64,000 nucleotides of DNA from the human T2T-CHM13v2.0 reference genome, Homo sapiens (GCF_009914755.1 NC_060930.1); one strand, 5' to 3'; shown: positions 19,621 to 40,233, counted from the stretch's first letter. Program-made: numbers and translations. The notes: a model not told the origin generated them from the sequence alone.

Positions 19621-20189
19621 TGAGGCAGGCAGATCACGAGTTTAAGACCAGCCTGACCAACATGGTGAAACCCCATCTCTATTAAAAATACAAAAATTAG
19701 CCAGGCGTGGTGGCATGTGCCTGTAATCCCAGTTCAATGGGATCCCAGCTCAATGGGATTACTAAAACAAGCACTTAGTGCTGTATACATTCTCTAATTT
19801 ACAATTTTATACACAGAGGAAAACACCAAAACCTGGATGAGTCGGGAAAAGACTTTGAAGAGAATGCAGAACGTGAATACACCCTTATAAAATGTTGACT
19901 TAAGGCAGAGAAGATGAAGAACCATGTAAGAGGAAAGAATGGCACGGGCAAAAAAGCTTCAAGGAATGCATGTGAAACGTACAGTGTTGGTTGGTGTGTG
20001 TCTCCACTAAATGGTTTAGAAATCATGGAAAGTCAAACTGAATAAAGAAAAAATATTCAGGAGGCTGATGCAGGAGAATCGCTTGAACCCGGAAGGCAGA
20101 GGTTGCAGTGAGCTGAGATCGTGCCACCGCACTCCAGCCTGGGTGACAGAGTGAGACTCCGTCTCAAAAAAAAAAAAAAAAAAAAAAAA
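19621..20189 (+). mobile_element. AluS split by a ~320-bp non-Alu insertion (19733-20053)
   Basis: Alu runs to cctgtaatcccag at 19732 and resumes at tattcaggaggctga ~20054. Confidence 0.9.
19757..20056 (+). repeat. Copy A of a ~300-bp local direct duplication
   Basis: Aligns by eye at ~90% to 20803-21108; the ORF track gives near-identical translations ([16 protein letters not shown]...). Confidence 0.95.
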
Positions 20190-20747
20190 TCATGGCAGTG
20201 GGGAACTCCTCTGCTTTCAGTATGCCCTATCCAAAGCCATCACTACCTTCCCAGGAATACTGCACCCAACCTTTCTTCCTCCCTTAAATGATCAAGTGTC
20301 CCTCATTCTTTGCTGAATTCCTCTGGCCTGTGAAGACATGAAGCCCCTTTCTACTCCTGCCTGAAAAGATATTCCCTCACTCTCAGTCCCCACCTCCTGT
20401 CTCCTATATTTTCTTCGATTTCTATAAATATTTCAATGCTTCCCTCACATAAAAAGTTTTCTGAAGTAACAAATTTCCATGTTCTCTAACATATCATTTC
20501 AGACTATAAAAAGAAAAAATTTAAGGTATCATGTTACATTTATTACAAATGAATTCTTTTTAAAAATTCAGGTGACATCTCATTAAACTTTCTCTTATAA
20601 CCCATATTATGTTCCCAAATTCATGCAAAAAAAATCAATTTTTAAAAATAAGAGTTTAGAGAATCAAATCACTTAAATTTTTGAGTTGTCAATACTTGGC
20701 CAGACTCTGTTATAGAATACCTAATTCTACAAGAATTTGTATTTCTC

Positions 20748-20777
20748 TACCCACAAAAATTAAAAATTAAAATTTTT
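20748..20777 (+). mobile_element. Ultra-short L1MA 3'-tail insertion
   Basis: tacccacaaaaattaaaaattaaaa matches the L1 terminus at 17017-17040; flanked by aattt(g/a)tatttctc at 20734-20747 and 20778-20791. Confidence 0.6.
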
Positions 20778-20802
20778 AATTTATATTTCTCCTCAAGTGT
20801 TA

Positions 20803-21108
20803 GATTAAAATGAGCACTTCAGGCTGTATACATTCTCTAATTAATTTGCAATTTTATACACACATGCAAAAAAATACCAAAACCTGGATGAGTCAGGAAA
20901 AGACTTTGAAGAGAACATAGAACTTGAATACAGCCTTATAAAATGTTGACTTAAGGCAGAGAAGATGAAGAACCATCTAAGAGGAAAGAATGACATGGGC
21001 AAAAAAGCTTCAAGGAATGCATGTGAAATGTACAGTGTTGGTTGATGTGTGTCTCCACTAAATGGTTTAGAAATCATGGAAAGTCAAACTGAATAAAGAA
21101 AAAAATAT
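20803..21108 (+). repeat. Copy B (probable donor) of the ~300-bp duplication
   Basis: Match to 19757-20056; continues uninterrupted into old L2-like sequence. Confidence 0.93.
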
Positions 21109-21774
21109 GATTATTCCAGATTGTCGTGAACCATGAAGTTTAGGCAAAGGAGTTCAGACTTGGCTTTTTTGTTTGTTTCAGTTTTTTTTAAGCCAATGTA
21201 AATTTTAAGAAAATAAGAGTGGAAGGATGTTTTAGAGAATCAGGTCTGTCAACAATGTAAAGACTAGAACAGCAGTGAAGAGGGCGAGCAGCAGAGGGAG
21301 GTGGTAATTAGTAGGGAGAGCCAAAAGAAGGTTCAGACAGTGATGTAGGCACATGCAGATAAGGGCGGTGGGTCGCTGGGGGGAGAAAATCATACAAAGG
21401 AAGCTTGAGAGTTCAAAGAAAGACACCATAATTAAAGGGTAACCATTCCCAAAGTATTTCACTCTAAGATTCCTTTAAATATTGGATCTGCTTCATAAAC
21501 GTCCTCATCAAACACAAGTGGTTATTTTCAAAAGGCTGGTGTTTTAAGCTTACCTATCCCTACCATGAGCTTAAAACAGCAGGTAGAAGACATCTTAAAG
21601 ATGTTTTAAAGAAAACAGATCAAGCCAATACGATAGATAGTGAGATGATATTTTTTAGCAGCAGCTACCATTTACTGAGGGCTTACTATGTGTCAAACAC
21701 TGTGCTAGGCCTTCTGCCAACATCATCTTTCCTCCTCACAATTCTGTAGGTATCGTTAGTTCCTTTTCTAAGAC

Positions 21775-22030
21775 TTTATTTTTTTTAGAGCAGTTTTAGG
21801 TTCACAGTAAAATTGAGGGAGATACAGATCCCAACCTCCCTACTTCCACACCTGCACAGCCTCCTCCTTTATCCACATCCTCCATGGGGTGGTGCATTTG
21901 TTACAACTGATGAACCAACATTGACCCGTCATTATCACCCAGAGTCCATAGTTCACATTAGGGTTCACTCTTGGTGTTGACATTTTATGTGTCTGGACAA
22001 ATACATAATAATGTGTATCCACTATTAAAC
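21775..22030 (-). mobile_element. L1MB/MC-type 3' fragment
   Basis: tttagagcagttttaggttcacag...gttacaactgatgaacc...cattagggttcactcttggtgttg. Confidence 0.75.
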
Positions 22031-22265
22031 TCAGTCTAACAAAAATGATCAACCTGAAGAAGGGTACACCTTTAAAACTAGCAGAGCCAATATTTATCCC
22101 ATACTATATGTGTTGCATAAGATGGAAACATACCTGAATTAGCACTTAGAACCTCTGACAAATAGTATGCTTTTAATAAATATATCTCAGTCATCAAAAT
22201 TAGGATATAATTAGGTACTATTTTAACAGAATTGGAGGATTTACACTTTCAATAAAAGTTAAGCA

Positions 22266-37585: not shown

Positions 37586-37890
37586 CTTTTTTTTTTTTTT
37601 TTTTTTTGAGACAGAGTCTCGCTCTGTCACCCAGGCTGGAGTGTAGTGGCAAGATCTTGGCTCACTGCAACCTCCACTTTCCGAGTTCAAGTGATTCTCC
37701 TGCCTTAGCCTCCTGAGACGCTGGGATTACAGGCACCCACCACCACATCCGGCTAATTTTTGTATTTTTAGTAAAGACGGGGTTTCACCATGTTGGCCAG
37801 GCTGGTCTCGAACTCCTGACCTCAGGTGATCCGCCTGCCTCGGCCTCCCAAAGTGGTGGCATTACAGGTGTGAGCCATGGTGCCCAGCCT
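37586..37890 (-). mobile_element. AluSx
   Basis: Full reverse Alu. Confidence 0.9.
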
Positions 37891-38249
37891 AGACTGTAAT
37901 TCTTAATGTTTGTAAAAATCACCCTCACGCTCCTCTTGGCTACTACTGAACATATTTTGAAATTTAAGATATTTCTGAATGGCAGCTGTGAAGGAGAATT
38001 AATATTTCTCCCAAACCAAAGAATAGCCAAGAAAACGGTGGGCACCTCCTGCCAAGTTAGCATCTGGGGTTGAAAGAATGATGCTCTAACACCTAATAGT
38101 TGACTCTTTGGGGATGGAAGAGCACAGGAATTATAAAAATACCCAGTGGTAAAAATACTTCATGACGTTTTGCTTATTACATTAATTGAATATAATCTAA
38201 GTCTAGCAACTAACATAATGAGCTAATTAAGAGTTATTTTTCCTACCAC

Positions 38250-38555
38250 GTTTTTTTTTTGTTTTTTTTTTTTTGAGATGGAGTCTCACTCTGTCATCCA
38301 GGCTGGAGTACAGTAGAGCGATCTCAGCTCACTGCAACCTCTGCCTCCCAGGTTCAAGCAAATCTCACTTCAGCCTCCTGAGTAATTGGGATTACAGGCA
38401 TGCACCATCACAACTGACTAATTTTTGTATTTTTTGGTAGAGATGGGGTTTCACCCTGTTGGCCAGGCTGGTCTCAAACTCCTGACCTCAAATAATCCAC
38501 CTGCCTTGGCCTCCCAACATACTGGGATTACAGGCGTGAGCCACCATGCCTGGCC
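38250..38555 (-). mobile_element. AluS
   Basis: Full reverse Alu; TSD-like ttcctac. Confidence 0.9.
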
Positions 38556-39076
38556 ATTCCTACAACATCTTTTCTAAAACACCTGTATGATGTCCTTTCT
38601 TCAAATAACACCTCACATTCCTCTTACTCCGTGGCTGATTCAAAACACTGCATCTCTGAAGACCCATGAGCTCCAGTGGCTTAACCTAGCAGTTTTAACT
38701 ACAGCTAGCAGGAGGAAATACACCTACGTAGTTCCTTTTCTCAGTAGCATACCCAGTATCAGCACTGCTTTTAAATCCTTTATTCATTTTGTATACTTCC
38801 TCTACTTAACTGAGCTGTGTTGAAACATCTAAGGTGTGGGATCTATTACTTGAATCTAAGGTTGACATGTGTCTCAGTACTTCCACCTGAATATTTAAGG
38901 AATCAAACTCAGACCTGATTACATAGAACCATTTATATAATAAAAGTACTCCACCCTTGAAATCTCGGAGAGAAAAATATAGACCCTGACCAAAGACACA
39001 GAAAGCAATATTTATTCCATCCCCTATACCTCCTTAATTTAACAGCAGTAAAGAGAGATAAGAAATACCACCACCA

Positions 39077-39201
39077 AGGCTGAGGCAGGAGAATGGCATG
39101 AACCCGGGAGGTGGAGCTTGCAGTGAGCCGAGATCGCGCCACTGCACTCCAACCTGGGCAACAGAGCAAGACTCCGTCTCAAAAAAAAAAAGAAAAAAAA
39201 A
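39077..39201 (+). mobile_element. 5'-truncated AluY
   Basis: Right arm with gaatggcatgaacccggg; TSD aaataccaccacca. Confidence 0.88.
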
Positions 39202-39213
39202 ATACCACCACCA

Positions 39214-40233
39214 GGCTGGGCATGGTGGCTCACACCTATAATCCCAGCATTTTGGGAGGCCCAGGCAGGTGGATCACTTGAGCCCAGGAGTTTGAGACCA
39301 GCCTGGGCAACATGGTGAAACCCTGTCTCTACAAAAAAAAAAAAAAAAATTGGCTGGGCACGATGGCTCATGCCTGTAATCCCAGCACTTTGGGAGGCTG
39401 AGGCTGGTGGACCATGAGGTCAGGAGTTCGAGATCAGCCTGGCCAACATGGTGAAACCTGGTCTCTACTAAAACTACAAAAATTAGCTGGGCGTGGTGGC
39501 GCACGCCTGTAGTCCCAGTTGGGACTGGGGCTAGTCCTTTGGTCTTATATACTATATTATGGCTTCTTTAAAGAAGATTCATACATGATTTGATATACAT
39601 TCTGAGAAGATTATCACAATCAAGCTAATTAGCATATCCAACACCTCCCATAGTTACTTTTTTTATGTATGTGTATGGTGGAAACACTTCAGATGTATTC
39701 TCTTAACAAATTTCATACATTATCATGTATAGTTACCAGGCTGTATGTTAGATCCCCCAGAATGTATTCCTACTGCATAACTGAAACTGTATACCCTTTG
39801 ACCAACATCTCCTATTTCTCCCACCTCCCACTCCAGCCCCTGGTAACACCACTGTACTCTCTGTAGAAGTTCAACTTTTAAAAAATTAGCCAGGCAAGGT
39901 GGTGGGTGCCTGTAATTCCAGCTACGTGGGAGGCTGAGGCAGGAGAATCACTTGAACCCGGGAAGCGGAGGTTGCAGTGAGCTGAGATCATAACATTCCA
40001 CTCCAGCCTGGGTGACAGTGCAAGCCCCCCGTCTCAAAAAAAAAAAAAAAGATTAGCTGGGCTTGGTGGGCCACACATGTAGTCCCAAGTACTCAGGAGG
40101 CTGAGGTGAGAGGATCGTTGGAGCCCCGGAAGTCAAGGCTGCAGTAAGCCATGATTGTGCCACTGCCCTCCAGACTAAGCGACAGAATGAGACCTTGTCT
40201 CAAATAAAAAAAAAAAAGAAAGAAAGAAAGAAA
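39214..40233 (+). mobile_element. Nested composite: AluJ (left arm 39214-39350, right arm 40051-40233) containing AluS (39352-40050), which contains a non-Alu insert (39519-39880)
   Basis: Order of monomers read directly from the sequence; the insert matches 41053-41116 and 36746-36961. Confidence 0.88.

What the first reader, a model, noticed from the sequence alone, without database searches (positions are those of the whole stretch)
19720..39530. Both captured insertions start at the same Alu position, right after CCTGTARTCCCAG
Seen: the breaks at 19732/19733 and 39518/39519 fall at the equivalent nucleotide of the Alu right arm, and both are followed within a few bases by tggga(t/c), complementary to the preceding (a/g)tccca. 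Established: this is the right-arm counterpart of the conserved 26-bp Alu core (CCTGTAATCCCAGCACTTTGGGAGGC) often associated with rearrangement breakpoints, and the core is itself a small inverted repeat. Inference: a hairpin-prone fragile site in Alus that recurrently captures nearby DNA, i.e. a position-specific local copy-paste mechanism. With only two cases, coincidence is possible.
Basis: partly seen in the sequence, partly recalled or inferred. Interest (0 to 1): 0.78.

Follow-up and report, generated by a model that had tools for sequence, protein, structure and literature searches.

The report
Local DNA copied into two Alus
Two Alu repeats 20 kb apart each carry an old copy of nearby unique DNA inserted at the same small stem-loop of the Alu, most likely through copying errors that switch templates there rather than through a strongly breakable site.

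Summary
Both left breaks map to the same Alu position: the last base of CCTGTARTCCCAG, model position 169. At site 1 the break is ambiguous between 169 and 179.

Both inserts are copies of nearby DNA. They are not retrotransposed and are not members of a repeat family. Site 1 copies about 300 bp lying 1.07 kb downstream, and only 2 copies exist in the genome. Site 2 is a mosaic: 65 bp from 1.5 kb downstream (2 copies in the genome) plus about 300 bp of an L1 piece from 2.8 kb upstream (95% identical, against 71-76% for other L1 copies).

Each junction also carries an inverted copy of the last 7-9 Alu bases (p about 0.001 and 0.004-0.017).

Genome-wide pattern counts show no excess of Alu-to-foreign junctions right after CCCAG. 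That bin is the lowest of six. A recurrent class of short fold-back copies does exist at this stem-loop. One chr7 Alu shows the same design: fold-back, then a copy whose nearest match is 5.4 kb away, then return to the Alu.

Best reading: serial template switching at the TCCCAG...GGGA stem-loop. This is a weak recurrent switch point, not a fragile hotspot. Whether the events happened after or during Alu integration is unresolved.

The parts
19620..19732 (+). Site 1: 5' part of an AluS (model 47-169), ending in CCTGTAATCCCAG
19733..19762 (+). Site 1 junction tract. The 16-nt unit CCCAGYTCAATGGGAT occurs twice in tandem (19728-19743 and 19744-19759). TGGGATTAC (19754-19762) is a perfect inverted copy of GTAATCCCA (19723-19731). 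CTCAA (19749-19753) also matches the source at 20792-20796, in register.
19763..20058 (+). X': copy of unique DNA from 1.07 kb downstream, in direct orientation. 21 mismatches in 291 aligned bases plus 2 indels. The last bases, TATTC, overlap in sequence with Alu 170-175.
20059..20190 (+). Site 1: 3' part of the same Alu (unambiguous from model 176) with its poly(A)
20792..21104 (+). X: source of the site 1 insert. The BLAST core is 20806-21104. Only these two copies exist in the genome.
39214..39342 (+). Left arm of an older AluJ-like element. Its A-rich linker received the AluS of site 2.
39343..39518 (+). Site 2: 5' part of an AluS (model 1-169), ending in CCTGTAGTCCCAG
39519..39583 (+). 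D': 65-nt copy of 41052-41116 with 6 mismatches. Its start, TTGGGACT, forms a near-palindrome with the Alu end AGTCCCAG.
39583..39880 (+). A': copy of an old L1 3'-end piece from 36746-36961, with 8 mismatches in 205 aligned bases. It keeps about 87 nt that the source has since lost. It joins D' through a 1-nt overlap.
39881..40050 (+). Site 2: 3' part of the same AluS (from model about 129) with its poly(A). 39881-39921 repeats 39478-39518, a 41-nt overlap with 10 differences, 6 of them at CpG sites. AAAAATT (39881-39887) is shared with the end of the L1 source.
40051..40215 (+). Right arm of the AluJ-like host element, which resumes in its linker (gattagctggg...)
36746..36961 (+). A: source L1 segment, lying in its native L1 context (L1 sequence continues on both sides). 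It carries a later deletion of about 87 nt between the near-repeats AGATGAT and AGATGTAT.
41052..41116 (+). D: unique source segment that starts with CTGGGACT

Best explanation
Both sites are real, old copy-paste insertions of nearby DNA into the right arms of two different AluS elements. They were made by serial template switching during DNA synthesis.

**Proposed steps**
1. The growing strand left the Alu inside the conserved stem-loop TCCCAG-CTACTC-GGGA (model 165-179).
2. It produced a short inverted (fold-back or palindromic) copy of the last 7-9 Alu bases.
3. It copied 65-310 bases from one place (site 1) or two places (site 2) 1-3 kb away, in direct orientation.
4. It returned to the same Alu through 2-7 bases of microhomology. 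At site 1 at most about 6 Alu bases were lost. At site 2 the return was 41 bases behind the exit, so those 41 bases are duplicated.

The shared breakpoint reflects this stem-loop (with its AGCT palindrome) acting as a weak, recurrent template-switch point. It does not reflect a strongly breakable site.

**Shown:** the anatomy, the local and low-copy origin of the inserts, the inverted tracts, the nested Alu structure, the genome-wide fold-back class, and one further example on chr7.

**Inferred:** the order of steps, the polymerase, and whether the events hit resident Alus or occurred during Alu integration.
For: - **Local copies.** Shown. They are unique in the genome (2 of 2 places; 2 of 2 places). 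For the L1 piece the local pair is far closer than any other copy (95% against 71-76% for the other 38 scored).
- **One split Alu per site.** At site 1 the two halves abut in model coordinates (169/179 and 170/176). At site 2 the composite sits between the two halves of an AluJ split in its linker, with poly(A) and a linker duplication.
- **No retrotransposition marks on the inserts.** Neither has its own poly(A) or target-site duplication.
- **Mosaic of two templates at site 2.** The junction overlaps are 1 nt and 7 nt.
- **Inverted copies at both left junctions beyond chance** (p 0.0013, and 0.0043-0.017). The junction DNA folds better than shuffles (z -1.8 with 9 of 200 shuffles as good; z -3.4 with 0 of 200).
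- **The stem is the 7SL/Alu-domain hairpin**.
- **Genome-wide fold-back products.** About 10 of the first 100 of 172 hits continue GGGA with an inverted copy of their own upstream TARTCCC. Three of 66 hits are AGCT-centred fold-backs, and L049 was checked.
- **Third instance, L068 on chr7.** It reads Alu 1-179, then TTACA (fold-back), then a 116-nt copy whose nearest match lies 5.4 kb away on the same strand, then Alu from about model 200.
- **Similar ages.** Pairwise mismatch is 21/291, 8/205 and 6/65, pooled 35/561 = 6.2%.
Against: - Only three such loci are known to me, two of them in this window. Control positions were not tested for local capture, so specificity to this stem-loop is not shown.
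- The total of Alu-to-foreign junctions shows no peak here.
- The intact stem-loop is weak, with a 4-bp stem. Its z-scores of -0.4 to -1.15, and +0.6 on the other strand, are unremarkable.
- At site 1 the first 30 nt can be read in two ways. In one, the exit is at 169, copying of X begins at CTCAA, and 9 nt were replaced. In the other, the exit is at 179 after a mutated loop. Each reading needs a coincidence of roughly 1 in 100 to 1 in 1000.
- At site 2 the inverted 8-mer is native to the source, so a fold-back step is inferred, not seen.
- For L068 the two distant paralogues (93%) match the insert better than the local copy does (88%). The three-way alignment shows about 6 changes private to the local copy, so the local origin is likely but not proven.
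- Two such rare events lying 20 kb apart remain unexplained.
Confidence: 0.5

Rival explanations
1. Coincidence. Two unrelated local templated insertions (ordinary dispersed micro-duplications) happened to land in Alus at matching positions. The inverted matches at the junctions play no causal role.
For: - The site shows no excess of foreign junctions genome-wide.
- A third local 2-copy duplicate in the window (47525-47594 and 58924-58993, 94%) is not in an Alu, so small local duplications occur here without Alus.
- The site 1 break is ambiguous over 11 nt, which raises the chance of an apparent match to several percent.
- The scan read many windows, so rare coincidences will be picked up.
Against: - The joint chance of 9-nt and 7-8-nt inverted matches at two junctions is about 1e-5.
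- Alus cover only about 20% of the window (50 hits), so two of two in Alus at matching positions has a chance of about 1e-3 or less.
- L068 repeats the design elsewhere.
- The fold-back class at this stem is recurrent.
Confidence: 0.2
2. Born with it. The capture happened during each Alu's own retrotransposition. While the Alu RNA or its single-stranded cDNA was being copied at the target, synthesis stalled at the stem-loop, switched to DNA near the integration site, and came back. On this reading the Alu never existed intact at these loci.
For: - The Alus look about as old as the duplications. Private non-CpG differences, leaving out junction-adjacent columns, are 4 of about 187 sites (Alu 1) and 10 of about 267 sites (Alu 2), pooled 3.1%. 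The per-lineage estimate from the copy pairs is 3.1% (35/561 divided by 2).
- L068 is similar: about 8/216 for its Alu against about 7/116 changes private to its insert.
- This reading explains why the target is an Alu, why the sources lie near the integration site, and why a structured RNA or cDNA position matters.
- The composite at site 2 is flanked by the Alu's own linker duplication and poly(A).
Against: - The age estimates are crude, with small counts. The under-5% frequency filter undercounts private changes, and against a generic consensus the Alus look older (5-6%).
- Site 1 has no recognisable target-site duplication.
- 5'-truncated Alus in my 341-kb sample do not pile up at the stem. 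12 of 84 starts fall at model 162-190, against about 10 expected (the sample is biased by how loci were chosen).
- I saw no paper describing return to the same Alu RNA after copying genomic DNA. Searches found none, but they were not aimed at this question.
Confidence: 0.2
3. The base after TCCCAG is a hairpin-driven fragile site where double-strand breaks recur and capture nearby DNA genome-wide.
For: - Two hits in one window map to the same model position.
- The literature reports Alu/Alu junction enrichment near the 26-bp core and downstream of the A, B and A' boxes (passages of PMC6071635).
- AGCT-centred fold-backs exist (3 of 66 hits).
Against: - By-eye counts of foreign tails per 3-nt bin, divided by each filter's pass rate, run from upstream to downstream as about 70-110, 90-110, 50-70 (the bin after CCCAG), 120-170, 145-170 and 130-155.
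- Of 60 loci fetched for the post-CCCAG filters, 59 are small changes internal to the Alu and 1 is a foreign junction.
- Of the 5 junction loci examined (3 right-arm, 2 left-arm), none has a local copy within its flanks.
- The intact site is not unusually structured.
Confidence: 0.07
4. The junctions are leftovers of larger tandem duplications that were later trimmed by deletions.
For: The D'|A' junction (end of 41116 joined to start of 36746) is what a tandem duplication of 36746-41116 would create.
Against: - It would need two deletions whose ends meet in one Alu, leaving complementary or overlapping Alu parts between the halves of an AluJ.
- There is no other similarity between 36961-39343 and 40216-41051.
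- Site 1 is flanked by abutting halves of one Alu.
Confidence: 0.03

Closest known systems
Replicative template switching with templated insertions (FoSTeS/MMBIR; named from my own knowledge, and mentioned in passages of PMC5453318)
   Same: Copies of nearby DNA, several switches in one event, 1-7 nt microhomology at the joins, a small duplication or deletion at the return point, and direct orientation.
   Different: The events here are small (65-310 bp) and fixed in the genome. Both start in the same stem-loop of a repeat, and each has a short inverted step at the first join.
Short template-switch mutations, the four-point model (Loytynoja and Goldman 2017, PMC5453318; Walker et al. 2021, PMC7954356; passages read)
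   Same: Inverted copies of adjacent sequence that create perfect inverted repeats. The fold-back products at GGGA seen genome-wide fit this class.
   Different: Both surveys excluded repeat-masked donor fragments (passages), so Alu-internal events were not catalogued. Here the fold-back is followed by a long direct copy from kilobases away.
Polymerase-theta end joining with snap-back templated inserts (recalled; no paper read)
   Same: Junction tracts built from direct and inverted copies of the flanks, and repeated attempts that give tandem units (site 1).
   Different: From recall, those inserts are usually tens of bases and come from within about 100 bp, not 300 bp from 1-3 kb away.
The 26-bp Alu core as a rearrangement hotspot (Rudiger et al. 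1995, as cited in PMC6071635; passages read)
   Same: The same conserved CCTGTAATCCCAG motif. Enrichment is reported near the core and downstream of the A, B and A' boxes.
   Different: That literature concerns Alu/Alu exchange, where long identical stretches favour switching, and mainly the left-arm core (62 of 219 junctions). Here the partners are non-Alu DNA, and my counts show no peak.
Chimeric retrocopies from reverse-transcriptase template jumping (recalled; no paper read)
   Same: A composite element flanked by one target-site duplication and one poly(A), as at site 2.
   Different: From recall, known chimeras join two RNAs end to end. Here local genomic DNA sits inside one Alu, with return to the same element.

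Membership tests
Local templated insertion / dispersed micro-duplication by template switching | The insert is a copy of sequence found elsewhere nearby, not a repeat-family member | tested here: met
   Searches show the local copies. Searches find 2 places each in the whole genome. In one search the local pair is 95% identical against 71-76% for the other 38 scored copies.
Local templated insertion / dispersed micro-duplication by template switching | Short microhomology at the joins and no retrotransposition hallmarks on the insert | tested here: met
   The overlaps read are CT or TC (site 1), and 1 nt and 7 nt, AAAAATT (site 2). The inserts have no poly(A) or target-site duplication of their own.
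Local templated insertion / dispersed micro-duplication by template switching | The ancestral state lacks the insert | not testable with these tools
   No other primate genome is held. states that G000 has no relatives here.
Short template-switch (fold-back) mutation | New sequence is the reverse complement of adjacent sequence, creating a perfect inverted repeat | tested here: met
   One search finds 9 of 9 at site 1 and 7 of 7 at site 2, with 8 of 8 against the native source start. At site 2 the inverted bases are native to the source, so the step itself is inferred.
Retrotransposed insertion (target-primed reverse transcription) of the inserted DNA | Poly(A) tail and target-site duplication flanking the insert | tested here: not met
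   The inserts end in Alu sequence. The A-runs present also exist in the sources.
Alu/Alu-mediated rearrangement (chimeric Alu) | A junction inside two aligned Alus, giving a hybrid Alu with deletion or duplication of the interval | tested here: not met
   The partners of the Alu breaks are non-Alu DNA. The 20 kb between the two Alus is neither deleted nor duplicated.
Sequence-specific fragile site / breakpoint hotspot after TCCCAG | An excess of breakpoints at that position over neighbouring positions genome-wide | tested here: not met
   Six 3-nt bins were counted. The bin after CCCAG is the lowest. Tails were classified by eye and filtered counts are small, so a modest excess (under about 2-fold) cannot be excluded.
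Sequence-specific fragile site / breakpoint hotspot after TCCCAG | Unusual secondary-structure potential of the intact site | tested here: not met
   Searches give z = -0.42, +0.22, -1.15 and +0.64 for intact Alu segments on both strands.

The most novel reading that the evidence does not exclude
The conserved right-arm stem-loop of Alu (TCCCAG-CTACTC-GGGA, with AGCT at its centre) is a sequence-encoded starting point for fold-back template switching across the million Alus of the genome. A fraction of these events goes on to copy kilobase-distant local DNA into the Alu. This may happen while the Alu itself is being integrated, so some Alus are born carrying captured local sequence. It would be a position-specific copy-paste route that earlier template-switch surveys could not see, because they masked repeats.
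Probability: 0.2. Interest if true: 0.7.

Novelty: new variant of a known kind. Interest (0 to 1): 0.42.

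Why it matters
If the stem-loop link is real, the commonest repeat in the human genome carries a built-in site where copying errors start. That site would create small dispersed duplications, new inverted repeats and mosaic sequence.

- It would explain some odd "split Alus".
- It would be a source of alignment and variant-calling errors inside repeats.
- The two main surveys of short template switching excluded repeat-masked donors (passages read).
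- If the events happen during Alu integration, that would add a new outcome of retrotransposition.

If the link is not real, these are two ordinary old micro-duplications and matter little.

Tried and rejected
2. **Bulk sampling of about 2 Mb** to get base rates of split Alus and local micro-duplications. Smaller requests were granted. The locus-enrichment test and a local-capture test at control positions could therefore not be done.
3. **Retrotransposed or repeat-family origin of the inserts.** Rejected and on the absence of poly(A) or a target-site duplication.
4. **Tandem duplication plus deletions.** Rejected (see rival explanations).
5. **Two independent Alus at site 2.** The 41-nt overlap differs at 10 of 41 bases, including one position I recall as subfamily-diagnostic. 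I rejected this in favour of one Alu because the composite lies between the two halves of an AluJ and has its own poly(A). A third template (another Alu) for those 41 nt remains possible.
6. **Reverse-transcriptase stalling seen as 5'-truncation pile-up at the stem.** 12 of 84 starts fall at model 162-190, against about 10 expected. There is no signal.
7. **A deaminase (AGCT hotspot) or restriction-like blunt cut at AG|CT.** This is only an idea from recall, prompted by the T in place of C just after CCCAG at both sites. It was not tested.
8. **Inverted-repeat signature at the third duplicate pair (47.5 kb / 58.9 kb).** At most 6 nt and not present in the current sequence. Dropped.
9. **Other fold-back or foreign cases.** L067 has foreign DNA after a CTAC fold-back but no source within 4 kb either side. 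L063, L065, L037 and L076 have no local copy within their flanks. L064, L066, L069, L071 and L075 are small internal or left-arm rearrangements. In L070 my script landed on a neighbouring normal Alu, so that locus was not assessed.
10. **Split-Alu scan of all held DNA** (341 kb, 388 hits). Nearly all other splits are in the A-rich linker. L030 is an arm-register duplication, not a capture.

Full report
**What is there, site 1**

An AluS is truncated at its 5' end (model position 47). It runs from 19620 to 19732 and ends in CCTGTAATCCCAG. It resumes at 20054-20059 and runs on through its poly(A) to 20190. On the Alu model the two parts abut: the left part ends at 169, or at 179 as nhmmer reads it, and the right part begins at 170, unambiguous from 176. 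They are therefore one Alu split by about 325 bp.

Of the insert, 19763-20053 is a direct-orientation copy of 20806-21104, which lies 1.07 kb downstream. The pair has 21 mismatches in 291 aligned bases and 2 indels. A whole-genome search finds only these two places (2 of 2 candidates).

The first 30 bases of the insert are a scrambled junction tract:
- The 16-nt unit CCCAGYTCAATGGGAT occurs twice in tandem (19728-19759).
- TGGGATTAC (19754-19762) is a perfect inverted copy of the Alu's GTAATCCCA (19723-19731).
- CTCAA (19749-19753) matches the source at 20792-20796, in register with the start of the clear homology 9 nt later.

Two readings fit this tract.
- Exit from the Alu at 169. Copying of X starts at CTCAA, and nine bases are replaced by the inverted Alu copy.
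- Exit at 179 after a mutated loop, followed by a 4-nt fold-back (TTAC) and then X.

I cannot decide between them. In either reading the exit lies inside the same 15-nt stem-loop.

**What is there, site 2**

An AluJ-like element (left arm 39214-39342, right arm 40051-40215; model 1-143 and 108-283) was split in its A-rich linker by a younger AluS. That AluS begins at 39343, and its poly(A) ends at 40050. This nesting shows that the two AluS parts belong to one element.

The AluS is itself interrupted after CCTGTAGTCCCAG (39518, model 169-171). The insert is a mosaic of two templates:
- 39519-39583 copies 41052-41116, which lies 1.5 kb downstream (6 mismatches in 65 bases). Only these two places exist in the genome.
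- 39583-39880 copies an old L1 3'-end piece at 36746-36961, which lies 2.8 kb upstream (8 mismatches in 205 bases).

The L1 family is abundant. One search found 2093 candidates and scored 40, and the other 38 scored copies are only 71-76% identical, against 95% for the local pair. This is a local copy, not an independent L1 insertion.

The source sits in intact L1 context. It has since lost about 87 nt between two near-repeats, so the copy is now more complete than its source.

The two pieces join through a 1-nt overlap. The L1 piece joins the Alu through AAAAATT, which is shared by the L1 source and the Alu linker. The Alu then restarts at about model 129, 41 nt behind the exit, so 39881-39921 repeats 39478-39518. 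The two copies differ at 10 of 41 bases, 6 of them at CpG sites.

**The inverted signature**

At site 2 the Alu end AGTCCCAG is followed by TTGGGACT. The source natively starts with CTGGGACT, the perfect 8-nt complement, so the original join was a 16-nt palindrome centred on AG|CT. At site 1 the inverted match is 9 nt.

Against 200,000 random positions of the window, matches this long have p = 0.0013 (9 nt), 0.0043 (8 nt) and 0.017 (7 nt). The junction DNA folds better than shuffles. Site 1 gives z = -1.8, with 9 of 200 shuffles folding as well. Site 2 gives z = -3.4, with 0 of 200.

The intact Alu segment does not fold unusually well: z = -0.42 and +0.22 for 48 nt, and -1.15 and +0.64 for 64 nt. 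The native TCC(C)...GGGA pairing is the conserved hairpin of the 7SL Alu domain, as shown in the structure line of the Rfam Metazoa_SRP match.

**Is the position a hotspot?**

The whole assembly could be searched with patterns. I used an exact Alu anchor, then two free bases, then 7-8 positions required to differ from the Alu consensus, then a short visible tail. This was done for six 3-nt bins.

| Last Alu base, relative to the G of CCCAG | Total hits | Reversed-pattern control hits | Foreign-looking tails (by eye) | Count divided by filter pass rate |
|---|---|---|---|---|
| -6..-4 | 185 | 3 | about 5-8 of the first 100 | about 70-110 |
| -3..-1 | 40 | 0 | 4-5 of 40 | about 90-110 |
| 0..+2 | 66 | 0 | 3-4 of 66 | about 50-70 |
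| +3..+5 | 52 | 0 | 7-10 of 52 | about 120-170 |
| +6..+8 | 115 | 0 | 17-20 of the first 100 | about 145-170 |
| +9..+11 | 172 | 0 | 10-12 of the first 100 | about 130-155 |

The filter pass rates are 0.13, 0.044, 0.059, 0.059, 0.13 and 0.13, in the order of the table. Counts were also scaled up to the unlisted hits.

Most hits in every bin are small deletions, duplications or insertions inside the Alu. Anchor conservation is similar across the four downstream anchors in my Alu sample: 100, 86, 111 and 103 of 265 right arms (the sample is biased by how loci were chosen).

The profile is therefore flat within about threefold, and the bin right after CCCAG is the lowest.

Of the 60 loci returned for the two post-CCCAG filters, 59 are changes internal to the Alu and 1 (L037) is a foreign junction. 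The window's own two sites fail these filters, because their junction tracts keep some Alu-like letters. The filters thin true junctions heavily, and the classification of tails is mine. A modest excess cannot be excluded. A strong hotspot can.

**A recurrent fold-back class and a third example**

In the +9..+11 list, about 10 of the first 100 hits continue GGGA with TTA or CTA. These bases match the inverted sequence of their own upstream TAAT or TAGT, and the continuation is usually TTACAG or CTACAG. The sequence then returns to the Alu. About 0.4 would be expected by chance among roughly 25 odd tails. Three of the 66 post-CCCAG hits are AGCT-centred fold-backs, and L049 was verified. Short fold-back copying at this stem-loop is thus a recurrent mutation, although rare per Alu.

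Two fold-back cases carry long foreign DNA.
- **L067** reads Alu 2-179, then CTAC, then foreign DNA. I found no source within 4 kb either side.
- **L068 (chr7)** reads Alu 1-179, then TTACA, then a 116-nt copy, then Alu from about model 200.

The L068 insert has 4 matches in the genome: itself, one 5.4 kb away on the same strand (88%), and two paralogues about 38-46 Mb away (93%). Those paralogues carry the context of the source, not of the Alu. The three-way alignment shows about 6 changes private to the local copy. A local origin is therefore likely but not proven.

Six other Alus are truncated or split at 169-179 by foreign DNA (L037, L063, L065, L067, L068, L076). Only L068 has a nearby matching copy. 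The five negatives were searched only within 1.5-5 kb flanks.

**Ages**

The three copy pairs are compatible with one age: 7.2%, 3.9% and 9.2% mismatch, pooled 35/561 = 6.2%, or about 3.1% per lineage.

For the two split Alus I counted private non-CpG changes, meaning variants seen in under 5% of 380 Alus. Leaving out junction-adjacent columns, these are 4 of about 187 sites and 10 of about 267 sites, pooled 3.1%. Against a generic consensus the Alus look older, at 5-6%. The data cannot tell whether resident Alus were hit or whether the capture happened during Alu integration.

**Mechanism**

The anatomy fits serial template switching:
- copies of nearby DNA in direct orientation;
- two templates used at site 2;
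- overlaps of 1-7 nt at the joins;
- return to the same Alu, slightly ahead of the exit at site 1 and 41 nt behind it at site 2;
- an inverted micro-step at the first join.

The tandem 16-nt unit at site 1 could record two successive exits at the same point, or it could be a later slippage.

A fold-back step that creates CTGGGACT at the strand end would give 8 nt of microhomology to the source at site 2. That would explain why that source start was used. This step is inferred.

The stem-loop and its AGCT centre offer a reason why independent events share a position without the site being breakable. Why two such rare events lie 20 kb apart in one intron is unexplained. A third unrelated local 2-copy duplicate (47525-47594 and 58924-58993, 94%) hints that the region is prone to small local duplications.

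**Literature**

[quoted passage not shown] That concerns Alu/Alu exchange.
- *Template-switch surveys.* Passages of PMC5453318 and PMC7954356 describe short template switches that create inverted repeats. Both state that repeat-masked donor fragments were excluded.
- *Searches.* My three searches listed no paper on fold-back switching at the Alu right-arm stem-loop or on local capture into Alus. This is not proof of absence. Supplements were not consulted.

**Verdict**

The copy-paste reading is confirmed. The hairpin idea is partly supported, as a weak and recurrent switch point. The fragile-hotspot idea is not supported.

Noticed in passing
window 47525-47594 and 58924-58993: A third small local duplicate: 70 bp, 4 mismatches, same strand, 11.4 kb apart, with only these two copies in the whole genome. 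Neither copy lies in an Alu. The direction of copying is unknown.
   Followed up: partly
window 36746-36961: After being copied, the L1 source segment lost about 87 nt between the near-repeats AGATGAT and AGATGTAT. The copy at 39583-39880 is now more complete than its source.
   Followed up: yes
window 39077-39200, 24920-25055, 7162-7300: Three ordinary 5'-truncated Alus with target-site duplications start at model positions 179, 166 and 155, near the same stem-loop. In the wider but biased sample, starts at 162-190 are not enriched (12 of 84, about 10 expected).
   Followed up: partly
genome-wide lists: Recurrent micro-deletions inside Alu right arms occur at short direct repeats. Examples are CCCAGCT|GAGGCA (12 nt lost), CCCAGCT|TGAACC, ACTC|TGTCTCAAAA (loss of most of the right arm) and GTARTCC|CTCGGGAGG. 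Many independent loci share the same product.
   Followed up: no
L066 (G000:C12:111832801-111842800) and L049 (G000:C3:20958588-20961622): These are fold-back inverted duplications centred on the CCTGTAATCCCAG region. L066 has about 40 nt of upstream flank copied in inverted form after the left-arm CCCAG. L049 has a 10-nt inverted copy inserted exactly at AG|CT of the right arm.
   Followed up: partly
L030 (G000:C1:242839598-242842618): An Alu with model 2-169 followed directly by model about 42-281. It looks like a register-shifted exchange between the right-arm and left-arm copies of the CCTGTAATCCCAG core, giving an extra monomer.
   Followed up: no
window 19600-19625 and 20190-20210: The site 1 Alu starts at model position 47, inside the left-arm core region, and has no recognisable target-site duplication. 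Its 5' end may have been removed by a separate event.
   Followed up: no
window 36210-36261: Rfam's mir-1268 model matches the Alu right arm below its gathering score (69 against 83 bits). This is an Alu-derived hairpin family and is not evidence of a microRNA gene here.
   Followed up: no
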